Positions 22,026 to 22,995 of a stretch of DNA of 38,540 bases are shown here, piece by piece; the stretch's first letter is position 1; each line of letters starts with the position of its first letter. The notes under the pieces were generated by a model, which ran no database searches, had not been told where the DNA came from, and saw only the letters and a program-made list of their open reading frames with translations. The position numbers and the translations under genes are program-made. Source of the stretch: a virus (lineage: Duplodnaviria; Heunggongvirae; Uroviricota; Caudoviricetes); the IMG/VR virus record IMGVR_UViG_2541047933_000012; one strand, given 5' to 3'.

Positions 22026-22127
22026 TTAAAGTGGGATCTAACTCTAATAATTTAAAAAATTTAATTGGGTCTTGATATTAATCACATAGACTCAATGCTC
22101 TTTAGTTCTTACATAGGTGGTTGTATT

Positions 22128-22295
22128 ATGAGTATCCCCAGTTTAGATGTTCATAAAGTTGTTAAGTGCGCAGAGCATAAAAAGGCTTTAGATGCAATAT
22201 CTCTCAAACTTAAGAATAACATTATTGACTCAAGCTCTGAATACGATTTTCTTGGCGACACAATAATTTTCAATAAAGATAAAAAAATAGGTTAA
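22128..22295 (+). CDS. Hypothetical small protein in AT-rich moron island
   Basis: 55 aa from the ATG at 22128, preceded by AGGTGG. Confidence 0.3.
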   Translation: MSIPSLDVHKVVKCAEHKKALDAISLKLKNNIIDSSSEYDFLGDTIIFNKDKKIG

Positions 22296-22369
22296 CCCTC
22301 AAACTTTCAACATATGAACTAGAACTTATTTTCAAAGAAACACTGCTAGTCATTGATGAAGCTCCTGTA

Positions 22370-22567
22370 TTGAAGTTTGCTGCCATTGACCCAACCGATG
22401 AAAATAACAACGAGCTGATTGATTTATTTTTATCCAAAGGTGGATTTATTTATATTAGAGAATACAAATCCGAGCCACATTATGAGTATGGCGACACTTC
22501 TCTATTTTTACATATACTTGACGCTACTCTTAAAGAGCTTAAATCTGCAAACAAAATATCCTATTAA
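22370..22567 (+). CDS. Hypothetical small protein in AT-rich moron island
   Basis: 65-aa ORF with a TTG start. Confidence 0.25.
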   Translation: MKFAAIDPTDENNNELIDLFLSKGGFIYIREYKSEPHYEYGDTSLFLHILDATLKELKSANKISY

Positions 22568-22673
22568 ATAAATTTTTGCTAACATAGCCCCGCGCCATGA
22601 CAAGATTTTCTGTTCTAGATGCAAGGGCTATGTGTGAATATCTATAAACAAAAACCCCATCCGGTGATTTTTG

Positions 22674-22904
22674 TCATTTTTTAGCCATCTCAATTGCGGC
22701 ATCAAAAAGTCGTTCAAGAATAAAATCAGGGTACTGTAATTTTTCTTGCTCGATATGAAGCTCATAAATTTTCCCTTCCCACTCCCATTTAAAATTAAAT
22801 CCAGAAGCAGAAGGTGCGAAATGTGTTTTAGCTTTAGGGTTAGCGTAACCAGCAACAGTCAACACATCAAACTTAAAATCTTGAGGTTTAATACGCATAA
22901 TCAT
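22674..22904 (-). CDS. Hypothetical small protein in AT-rich moron island
   Basis: Probable start at the internal ATG at 22904 preceded by AAGGA; convergent with the two plus-strand ORFs. Confidence 0.3.
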   Translation of the reverse strand: MIMRIKPQDFKFDVLTVAGYANPKAKTHFAPSASGFNFKWEWEGKIYELHIEQEKLQYPDFILERLFDAAIEMAKK

Positions 22905-22995
22905 ATCCTTTGCCAAGTTCATCATTATTCTTCGCGATTATAAAACAATGAATAAAATCATTAAAGCATAGACGTTAAATATCCTCAAAATGTGA

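What the first reader, a model, noticed from the sequence alone, without database searches (positions are those of the whole stretch)
22026..22995. AT-rich moron island with three small convergent ORFs
About 1 kb of low-GC DNA interrupts the late operon between the HNH and lysis genes. It holds two plus-strand and one minus-strand small ORF with plausible ribosome-binding sites. A perfect 9-bp inverted repeat (ACATAGCCC, 22582-22590, and GGGCTATGT, 22624-22632) sits between the convergent genes. None of the proteins is recognisable, so toxin-antitoxin or small defense modules are possibilities.
Basis: partly seen in the sequence, partly recalled or inferred. Interest (0 to 1): 0.55.

Follow-up and report, generated by a model that had tools for sequence, protein, structure and literature searches.

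The report
Two orphan prophage morons, one frameshifted
The AT-rich kilobase between the lysis genes and the HNH/terminase genes of this E. coli prophage holds two unrelated accessory genes of unknown function, not three, and one is broken here by a one-base deletion in a run of A's; it is an ordinary phage "moron" junction, not a toxin-antitoxin pair.

Summary
The AT-rich island is real: GC is 0.33 against 0.50 for the window. It fills exactly the gap between the Rz stop codon and the HNH start codon of an SfV-like prophage of ST95-type E. coli. SfV and vB_EcoM-720R4 have only 26 bp there.

The "three ORFs" are two genes.
- **Gene A.** The two plus-strand ORFs are halves of one 146-aa gene, split by an A8-to-A7 deletion at 22281-22287. 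Of 102 complete E. coli genomes with the island, 43 carry A7. All 17 listed of the other 59 have the extra base, and the five fetched encode the intact protein. A5 and A9 alleles exist elsewhere.
- **Gene B.** The minus-strand gene is 74 aa (22674-22898) and intact.

Both are tiny orphan families with no Pfam, PHROG, PADLOC, NCBIfam, PDB or Rfam match, and both are under purifying selection.

They are not partners. Gene A always lies antisense to the late operon and divergent from an HNH-terminase module. Gene B always lies sense, after the Rz-type spanin gene (directly after it in most loci). Each occurs without the other in several lineages, so the toxin-antitoxin reading fails.

The 9-bp inverted repeat exists, with its right arm one base off, but is not beyond chance by count.

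Verdict: a mosaic junction of two independent morons, one of them a pseudogene. Their functions remain unknown.

The parts
22026..22127 (.). Divergent intergenic region between the HNH start (22025, minus strand) and the gene A start (22128, plus strand). It holds a promoter-like TTGATA (22072-22077), a 16-nt spacer, AATGCT (22094-22099), and the gene A ribosome-binding site GGTGG (22116-22120).
   Evidence: About 72% conserved with the ARL09/232 and L009 loci, including TTGAT(A/G)TT and CTCAATG. The promoter score is only 8/12 and the consensus scan found nothing above shuffles. Promoter function is inferred.
22128..22567 (+). Gene A: a 146-aa orphan gene, a pseudogene in this window, antisense to the late operon. 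The N-terminal fragment is 22128-22295 (55 aa). The C-terminal part continues in the -1 frame from 22286 to the TAA at 22565-22567.
   Evidence: The reconstructed protein is 100% identical to WP_000026993, annotated intact in ATCC 11775, S88 and C1. The family has six representatives among 1.84 billion. dN/dS is about 0.2-0.4 between diverged homologues.
22281..22287 (+). A7 homopolymer, the site of the frameshift. The intact allele is A8.
   Evidence: It is the only indel between the window and the A8 genomes. Of 102 complete E. coli genomes, 43 carry A7 and 59 differ from it by one position over 80 nt. All 17 listed of those 59 span 81 nt. A5 (in frame) and A9 alleles were verified in DNA of L025 and L024.
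22582..22633 (.). Inverted repeat ACATAGCCC / GGGCTATGT with a 34-nt loop, in the 106-bp spacer between the convergent stop codons. A possible terminator or RNA-stabilising hairpin.
   Evidence: Found. On the minus-strand RNA it folds at -21.7 kcal/mol, z -4.1; on the plus strand -19.2, z -2.65. There is no adjacent U-run. The count is at chance level. It is not present in distant loci of either gene, but is kept in the 97%-identical L024/L025 variant.
22647..22675 (-). A-tract / short GC stem / U-tract hairpin that overlaps the gene B stop codon. A weak terminator-like element that could act in both directions.
   Evidence: -10.8 kcal/mol on the minus strand (z -2.2) and -5.6 on the plus strand. 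The consensus terminator scan did not call it.
22674..22898 (-). Gene B: an intact 74-aa orphan gene on the late-operon strand, 97 nt downstream of Rz. Its ribosome-binding site AAGGA is at 22906-22910.
   Evidence: Annotated by PGAP as WP_001220676. About ten full-length family members are known in Enterobacterales. dN/dS is 0.06-0.17. The AlphaFold2 model has pLDDT 68 with an alpha-beta3-alpha topology. It always lies after the Rz-type spanin gene.
22937..22942 (-). Perfect TATAAT -10 hexamer 38 nt upstream of the gene B start codon.
   Evidence: A perfect TATAAT lies 30-45 nt upstream in 3 of 7 upstream regions that do not otherwise align. The conservative binomial P is about 0.002, but the window was chosen post hoc. 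The -35 element is weak (3/6).
21675..22025 (-). HNH endonuclease gene, the left flank. It is the constant divergent neighbour of gene A.
22996..23433 (-). Rz spanin gene with embedded Rz1 (23049-23261), the right flank. It is the constant upstream neighbour of gene B.

Best explanation
The island is a mosaic junction where two unrelated, independently mobile AT-rich accessory cassettes (morons) abut.

**Cassette 1 (22026-22567): gene A**
- It is a 146-aa cytoplasmic protein (pI 5.4, no hydrophobic segment evident by eye).
- It is read antisense to the late operon and divergently from the HNH gene.
- It travels with the left edge of HNH / P27-type small terminase / large terminase packaging modules.

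**Cassette 2 (about 22568-22995): gene B**
- It is a 74-aa soluble alpha/beta protein on the late-operon strand.
- It travels with the right edge of Rz-type lysis cassettes.

**Inferred mechanism**
- Each gene has its own weak sigma-70 promoter.
- The two hairpins in the 106-bp convergent spacer limit read-through between them.
- Q-antiterminated late transcription must run through gene B in sense and gene A in antisense to reach HNH, terminase and the head genes.
- Gene A would therefore be a lysogen-phase gene, like lambda bor, silenced by interference during lytic growth.
- Gene B would be made late, and perhaps also in the lysogen.

**State in this window**
- Gene A is inactivated by an A8-to-A7 slippage deletion and yields a 55-aa stub. 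Rare transcriptional or -1 ribosomal slippage on the A-run would restore the exact wild-type sequence.
- Gene B is intact.

**Function**
- The most likely function class for gene A is a dispensable lysogenic-conversion or superinfection-exclusion protein.
- Gene B is most likely a small late-expressed protein that binds another protein.
- Both functions are guesses. The anatomy is shown.
For: **One gene, frameshifted**
-.

**An insertion relative to relatives**
- The Rz1-HNH gap is 26 bp in SfV and vB_EcoM-720R4.
- Flank homology ends at the HNH start and near the Rz stop.

**Foreign composition in every host context**
- Gene A has GC 0.30-0.35 in loci of 0.47-0.54.
- Gene B has GC 0.36-0.48 in loci of 0.48-0.55.

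**Independent linkage**
- Gene A is antisense in all 13 IMG/VR loci and in L004, L009 and L020-L023. It sits beside an HNH-terminase module in nearly all of them, with five different lysis cassettes and different sense-strand neighbours.
- Gene B is in sense downstream of the lysozyme-spanin (mostly Rz-type) genes in 11 of 12 IMG/VR loci and in L006, L008, L016 and L019. In L047 no lysis gene was detected. Other terminase types follow and gene A is absent.
- DNA homology to distant loci covers 22005/22091-22567 for gene A and 22676-22913 for gene B. It does not cover the spacer.

**Real genes**
- dN/dS is about 0.2-0.4 for gene A and 0.06-0.17 for gene B.

**Promoter-like elements**
-.

**Hairpins**
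-.

**Moron definition and the lambda Bor example**
- PMC3594210.
Against: - No transcription data are available.
- The consensus promoter and terminator scans are at shuffle level. The gene A promoter in this lineage scores only 8/12.
- Neither hairpin is a canonical intrinsic terminator.
- No function is supported by homology or fold. The gene A model is unusable (pLDDT 39). The gene B fold matches are generic.
- Constant positions could reflect module co-inheritance and need not mean function.
- Gene B could be a true lysis-cassette component and not a moron at all.
- Both genes decay in some lineages. Examples are the gene A frameshifts, gene B W40* in APEC O1, and gene B Q51* in L024/L025. 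They may therefore confer little.
Confidence: 0.7

Rival explanations
1. Tab/anti-Tab-like pair. Gene A would be a lysogen-expressed antisense defence protein that blocks a step of virion production. Gene B would be the late-operon antidote that protects the prophage's own lytic cycle.
For: - The architecture mirrors JBD26 (PMC10884400). There, a minus-strand moron with its own promoter lies beside the terminase genes, next to a small plus-strand late gene.
- Both genes here are small orphans and are adjacent.
- Gene A is always tied to the packaging module.
Against: - Tab homologues are always accompanied by anti-Tab. Here gene A has no constant partner. Its sense-strand neighbours are a 76-aa, a 74-aa or a 119-aa unrelated protein, or a spanin (BLASTP of the 76-aa protein against gene B gave E = 11).
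- Gene B occurs without gene A in Enterobacter, Citrobacter, Pantoea and eight IMG/VR loci.
- No PADLOC hit.
Confidence: 0.07
2. Contingency (phase-variable) gene. The poly-A tract would be a reversible ON/OFF switch for gene A. The A7 allele would be an OFF state, or a leaky state rescued by transcriptional or -1 ribosomal slippage, and not a dead gene.
For: - Four tract lengths exist: A5, A7, A8 and A9.
- Of 102 genomes, 43 carry A7 and 59 do not.
- The tract state is incompatible with the prophage SNP partitions. The four-gamete test fails against sites 13479, 14171, 16609, 28316 and 32207, which implies at least two events within ST95.
- A -1 slip after GAT AAA AAA regenerates exactly ...DKKNRL... 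(read directly from the sequence).
Against: - The tract is not conserved. Homologues read NQDAEN or NQDIEN there.
- By general knowledge, eight A's is short for a contingency locus in mismatch-repair-proficient E. coli.
- Much of the incompatibility rests on IMT5155, whose assembly has four private single-base insertions. The rest rests on one SNP.
- Plain nonsense mutations in gene B in sister lineages point to ordinary decay.
Confidence: 0.15
3. Type II toxin-antitoxin module.
For: Only that these are two or three small unrecognisable ORFs in an AT-rich island.
Against: - The genes are convergent, not an operon.
- They are not co-conserved.
- No Pfam, NCBIfam or PADLOC toxin or antitoxin family matches.
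- 43 genomes carry gene A frameshifted with gene B intact, and APEC O1 has lost both.
Confidence: 0.02
4. Gene B is an integral accessory of the Rz-type lysis cassette, for example a lysis-timing or spanin regulator, and not a moron.
For: - It lies downstream of the spanin gene, in the same orientation, in nearly every locus (L047 is the exception). The terminase modules that follow differ.
- It is under strong purifying selection, dN/dS 0.06-0.17.
Against: - No transmembrane segment, signal peptide or lipobox is apparent on reading the sequence (not run through a predictor).
- Most Rz-type cassettes lack it, including SfV, SfIV, 720R4 and every one of 50,697 phage records.
- It has lower GC than its surroundings and its own TATAAT.
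- In L050 it is separated from Rz by another gene.
Confidence: 0.15

Closest known systems
Phage lambda bor (a lysogenic-conversion moron between Rz and cos)
   Same: Gene A, like bor, sits downstream of Rz. It is transcribed against the late operon and is presumably expressed from the repressed prophage. It is dispensable for phage growth. The bor position and orientation are from my own knowledge; its role as a moron-type gene is in PMC3594210.
   Different: Bor is an outer-membrane lipoprotein. Gene A has no signal peptide or lipobox and no Pfam Bor match. No sequence or fold relationship was found.
Tab / anti-Tab of Pseudomonas phage JBD26 (PMC10884400)
   Same: An antisense moron with its own promoter is embedded in the late operon beside the terminase genes, next to a small sense-strand late gene. 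Both products are small orphan proteins.
   Different: Tab is always accompanied by anti-Tab. Gene A and gene B each occur alone in most lineages. [quoted passage not shown] Sequence similarity was not tested because the Tab sequence was not at hand.
HK97 gene 15 moron and the Hendrix/Juhala moron concept (PMC3594210)
   Same: Extra DNA relative to close relatives, deviant GC content, and flanking promoter-like and hairpin elements, inserted at a gene boundary within a late operon.
   Different: gp15 is a characterised superinfection-exclusion protein in the tail operon. The genes here have no known function, and their promoter and terminator activity is not shown.

Membership tests
Phage moron (Juhala/Hendrix definition, PMC3594210) | Extra DNA that is absent at the same junction in closely related phages | tested here: met
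   SfV and vB_EcoM-720R4 have 26 bp between Rz1 and HNH. SfIV has 291 bp. The window has 970 bp.
Phage moron (Juhala/Hendrix definition, PMC3594210) | Nucleotide composition different from the surrounding genes | tested here: met
   The island has GC 0.33 against 0.50 for the window. The same holds for homologues in other prophages.
Phage moron (Juhala/Hendrix definition, PMC3594210) | Own promoter | tested here: inconclusive
   The consensus scan is at shuffle level. Gene B has a perfect TATAAT 38 nt upstream, recurring in 3 of 7 independent lineages. The gene A promoter scores 8/12 here, while L020 and L036 have TATAAT.
Phage moron (Juhala/Hendrix definition, PMC3594210) | Own terminator | tested here: inconclusive
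   Two hairpins lie in the convergent spacer, with z -4.1 and -2.2 on the minus strand. Neither is a canonical stem plus U-run.
Phage moron (Juhala/Hendrix definition, PMC3594210) | Expression from the repressed prophage | not testable with these tools
   This needs RNA-seq or reporter fusions in a lysogen.
Type II toxin-antitoxin module | Two adjacent, co-oriented, co-transcribed genes | tested here: not met
   The genes are convergent, with a 106-bp spacer that holds hairpins.
Type II toxin-antitoxin module | Partners co-inherited across genomes | tested here: not met
   Each gene occurs without the other in several lineages.
Type II toxin-antitoxin module | Similarity to a known toxin or antitoxin family | tested here: not met
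   No Pfam, NCBIfam or PADLOC match.
Tab/anti-Tab defence system | The defence gene is always accompanied by a sense-strand late-operon partner | tested here: not met
   Gene A's neighbours differ between loci, and gene B is absent from 9 of 13 IMG/VR gene A loci.
Tab/anti-Tab defence system | Sequence or structural similarity to Tab or anti-Tab | not tested
There were no PADLOC or PHROG hits.
Known anti-phage defence systems (PADLOC-DB 2.0) | Match to a defence protein model | tested here: not met
   The only hit was PDC-M24A at E = 0.016, 13 bits, over 31 residues.
Bor/Iss lipoprotein family | Lipoprotein signal peptide and the Bor domain | tested here: not met
   No Pfam hit. The N-terminus MSIPSLDVHKVVKCAEHKK has no hydrophobic core or lipobox (read from the sequence).
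Homopolymer contingency locus / programmed frameshift | The slippery tract is conserved across homologues, with both frames maintained | tested here: not met
   The tract is absent from homologues of 62% identity or less. Variation in tract length is present only within the E. coli lineage.

The most novel reading that the evidence does not exclude
Gene A would be a lysogen-expressed anti-phage or assembly-interfering protein specifically tied to HNH-dependent cos packaging modules. Slippage at the poly-A tract would switch it ON and OFF within ST95 populations. In this lineage gene B would have been recruited as its late-expressed counter-factor, in the logic of Tab/anti-Tab.
Probability: 0.07. 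Interest if true: 0.55.

Novelty: new member of a known kind. Interest (0 to 1): 0.25.

Why it matters
It corrects the annotation of a locus carried by at least 102 complete genomes of extraintestinal pathogenic E. coli, including UTI89, NU14, IHE3034, S88, APEC O1 and the type strain. PGAP either omits gene A or calls a spurious 65-aa TTG fragment in the A7 genomes.

It also defines two very rare orphan families with strict and different positional rules. One hugs HNH-terminase modules in antisense. The other hugs Rz-type lysis cassettes in sense. Such rules are how new prophage-encoded defence or takeover functions have been found before, so both genes are cheap candidates for a phage-panel screen.

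Beyond that, this is an ordinary example of lambdoid mosaicism and moron decay.

Tried and rejected
**Profile searches**
- The fused gene A protein, gene B, and all aligned family members were searched against Pfam, PHROGs, PADLOC and NCBIfam. Nothing was significant.

**Sequence searches**
- PDB profile searches found nothing below E = 0.25.
- tblastn against 50,697 phage records found no match for either protein.
- The exhaustive HMM search of 1.84 billion representatives with the gene A profile found only six proteins, three of them fragments.
- Word-indexed searches of 5.8 billion proteins gave four hits for gene A and 10-15 for gene B.
- Scans of species-representative genomes found none for gene A and only Pantoea latae for gene B. 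One alignment was too divergent to scan.

**Structure**
- AlphaFold2 of gene A with three sequences gave pLDDT 39 and is unusable.
- AlphaFold2 of gene B gave pLDDT 68.
- The afdb50 library was unavailable.

**Other**
- Rfam found nothing.
- A literature search for the four RefSeq protein accessions found no papers.
- The consensus promoter and terminator scan was at background level.

**Rejected readings**
- Toxin-antitoxin, and a dedicated A/B pair, both on co-occurrence.
- Spurious ORFs, on dN/dS.
- An assembly artefact for A7: 43 independent complete genomes carry it.

Full report
**Context**

The window is an SfV-like prophage with an HK97-type head, a contractile tail and a lambdoid early region. 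Its late operon is on the minus strand. The 1.2-kb stretch around the finding (21900-23100) is 100% identical to UTI89, NU14, IHE3034, APEC O18 and other strains.

The order on the minus strand is as follows:
- Q antiterminator (24871-25665)
- an AT-rich 111-aa gene (24350-24685)
- holin
- GH24 endolysin (23430-23906)
- Rz with embedded Rz1 (22996-23433)
- the island
- HNH endonuclease (21675-22025)
- P27-type small terminase
- large terminase

**Checking the observation**

The composition drop is real. GC is 0.32-0.36 across 22000-23050, against 0.54-0.59 to the left and 0.44-0.50 to the right. The island is 0.330 against 0.501 for the window.

Relatives show that this is an insertion:
- SfV and vB_EcoM-720R4 have 26 bp between Rz1 and HNH, and SfIV has 291 bp.
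- Their homology to the window ends precisely at 22025.
- Rz homology to many lambdoid phages begins at about 23004.

- A perfect 9-bp repeat with a loop of 60 nt or less appears 0.63 times per dinucleotide shuffle of the island, and at 0.88 per kb across the window.
- The count alone is therefore unremarkable.
- The extended hairpin is more stable than shuffles on the minus-strand RNA: -21.7 kcal/mol, z -4.1.

**Three ORFs are two genes**

The first plus-strand ORF (ATG at 22128, GGTGG ribosome-binding site) stops at 22295, just after an A7 run at 22281-22287. The second has an open frame from 22283 but only a TTG at 22370 and no ribosome-binding site.

Reading GAT AAA AAA and then shifting by -1 gives ...FNKDKKNRLTLKL..., a continuous 146-aa protein. 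That reconstruction is 100% identical to WP_000026993. PGAP annotates this protein intact in ATCC 11775, S88 and strain C1, where the run is A8. The extra A is the only indel between those genomes and the window.

An 80-nt probe across the tract splits the 102 complete E. coli genomes that carry the island.
- 43 are identical to the window (A7).
- 59 differ at one position. All 17 listed of these span 81 nt, consistent with A8.

A 97%-identical variant of the island in metagenome assemblies carries A9 (frameshift, L024) and A5 (in frame, 145 aa, L025). The homopolymer is therefore an indel hot spot.

Within ST95 the tract state fails the four-gamete test against prophage SNPs. Sites 13479, 14171, 16609 and 28316 group IMT5155 (A7) with E19035 (A8). 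Site 32207 groups the window with those two, against APEC O1 (A7), ATCC 11775 and S88 (A8). This implies at least two events. The caveat is that the IMT5155 assembly has four private single-base insertions and may be error-prone.

In A7 genomes PGAP either omits the gene or calls the 65-aa TTG fragment.

The minus-strand gene is 74 aa (22674-22898). All full-length homologues found are 72-74 aa and start at the equivalent of M10. An AAGGA lies 7 nt upstream.

**Are they real genes?**

Yes.
- Gene A homologues at 30-63% identity give dN/dS of about 0.2-0.4.
- Gene B homologues give 0.06-0.17.

Both families are extremely small.
- Gene A has six representatives, three of them fragments, among 1.84 billion cluster representatives.
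- Gene B has about ten full-length members among 5.8 billion proteins.
- Neither is in any of 50,697 sequenced phages.
- In one-genome-per-species scans only Pantoea latae has gene B.

**Are they a pair?**

No.

*Gene A.* It is on the strand opposite to the late operon in every locus examined. The loci are 13 IMG/VR loci plus ARL09/232, L009, L020-L022 and L023. In nearly all of them its 5' end faces the 5' end of an HNH gene that is followed by P27-type small and large terminase genes. In L023 three unannotated genes lie in between, and L032 keeps only an HNH remnant. The lysis cassettes on its other side vary between GH24, GH19, holin_3_7 and holin_8 types. Its immediate sense-strand neighbour also varies: an unrelated 76-aa, 74-aa or 119-aa protein, or a spanin.

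*Gene B.* It is on the late-operon strand, downstream of the spanin gene and directly after it in most loci. In L050 an 86-aa gene intervenes, and in L047 no lysis gene was detected. The spanin is Rz-type (PF03245) except in Pantoea, which has DUF2570. Terminase_2-type small terminases follow, and gene A is absent. This holds in Enterobacter asburiae, Citrobacter freundii, Pantoea latae and eight IMG/VR contigs.

The two coincide only in this E. coli island lineage. DNA homology to distant loci covers 22005/22091-22567 for gene A and 22676-22913 for gene B. It does not cover the spacer with the inverted repeat.

The island is thus the seam where a lysis cassette carrying gene B at its end was joined to a packaging module carrying gene A at its start.

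**How it probably works (inferred)**

Both genes are AT-rich in every host context, as expected of horizontally moving morons (definition in PMC3594210).

*Gene B promoter.* A perfect TATAAT lies 38 nt upstream of the start codon (22937-22942). The same hexamer recurs 30-45 nt upstream in 3 of 7 lineages whose upstream DNA is otherwise unalignable. The conservative P is about 0.002, with the window chosen post hoc.

*Gene A promoter.* The upstream region keeps TTGATA, a 16-nt spacer and AATGCT in this lineage. Two distant lineages have TATAAT instead. The generic consensus scan is at background.

*Hairpins.* The convergent spacer has two, neither of them a canonical terminator.

*Transcription logic.* Q-modified polymerase has to cross the island to reach HNH, terminase and the head genes.
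- Gene A must therefore be antisense to late transcription. It is most plausibly a lysogen-phase gene in the manner of lambda bor, which occupies the same position and orientation (my knowledge of lambda).
- Gene B is co-transcribed late and may also have its own promoter.

*State in this window.* Gene A can give only a 55-aa stub, unless rare +1 transcriptional or -1 ribosomal slippage on the A-run restores the frame. Either would give the exact wild-type sequence.

**Function**

Nothing in Pfam, PHROGs, PADLOC, NCBIfam, PDB sequences or Rfam matches either gene.

*Gene A.* The AlphaFold2 model has pLDDT 39 and is unusable.

*Gene B.* The model is moderate: pLDDT 68, with an alpha-beta3-alpha topology. 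It finds only generic small sandwiches:
- dsRBDs at non-significant Foldseek E-values
- uncharacterised phage proteins in BFVD

Both products are soluble, with pI 5.4 and 6.7.

My best guess is a dispensable lysogenic-conversion or superinfection-exclusion protein for gene A, and a small late-expressed protein-binding factor for gene B. Neither is supported beyond context.

Both genes decay in some lineages. Gene B has W40* in APEC O1 and Q51* in L024/L025.

**Comparison with known systems**

The closest architectural analogue is Tab/anti-Tab of Pseudomonas phage JBD26. There, an antisense moron with its own promoter sits beside the terminase genes, with a sense-strand late-gene antidote (PMC10884400). 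Its defining obligate pairing is not met here.

The toxin-antitoxin reading fails on orientation, co-inheritance and family similarity.

**Verdict**

The moron reading is supported, and the three-ORF and toxin-antitoxin readings are not. This is a new member of a known kind, of low-to-moderate interest.

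Noticed in passing
window 24350-24685 (minus strand): A second AT-rich moron-like gene (GC 0.33, 111 aa, pI 4.05) lies between the Q antiterminator and the holin, the slot that stx genes occupy in Stx phages. It matches phrog_13663 (unknown function, E = 9e-54) and nothing else.
   Followed up: partly
window 22779 (L013 / APEC O1): APEC O1 carries the A7 frameshift in gene A together with a C-to-T change that turns gene B Trp40 into a stop codon. Both island genes are dead there, and PGAP annotates no gene B.
   Followed up: yes
L005 (APEC E18006), junction at about window 22212: An IS1 element is inserted inside gene A after its first 187 island bases. Everything from there through the lysis and early genes is deleted, up to a DUF2303 remnant and yfdR.
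   Followed up: no
L024 1398-2371 and L025 1-939: A 97%-identical variant of the whole island sits in a prophage with a GH19 endolysin. It has A9 or A5 in gene A. In gene B it has a Q51 stop and changes at the conserved E41-G42.
   Followed up: yes
L006 about 5905-6000; L016 and L043 about 4905-5000: Upstream of the Enterobacter and Citrobacter gene B homologues, the TATAAT is bracketed by an inverted repeat, CTGTGAA...(about 33 nt)...TTCACAG. It looks like an operator. There is no equivalent in the window.
   Followed up: no
window about 33010-33320 (plus strand): PGAP marks a 'frameshifted hypothetical protein' pseudogene at the same place in APEC O1, ATCC 11775, S88, E19035 and IMT5155. This is another decayed accessory gene, in the early and immunity region.
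   Followed up: no
window 23893-24297 (minus strand): The mechanical holin ORF is 134 aa, but PGAP annotates 101 aa (306 nt). The upstream extension may be an alternative start or an artefact.
   Followed up: no
L056 (IMT5155), window-equivalent 28004, 35628, 35691, 36995 and beyond 37277: The IMT5155 copy of the prophage has four private single-base insertions and an IS66 element in the integrase. Either the assembly is error-prone or this copy is decaying fast. This weakens its use as evidence for recurrent poly-A slippage.
   Followed up: partly
proteins P0003, P0006, P0010, P0014: The public protein collection holds several frame-shifted chimeric versions of both gene A and gene B from short-read assemblies. 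This suggests frequent indels, or assembly errors, in this AT-rich stretch.
   Followed up: no
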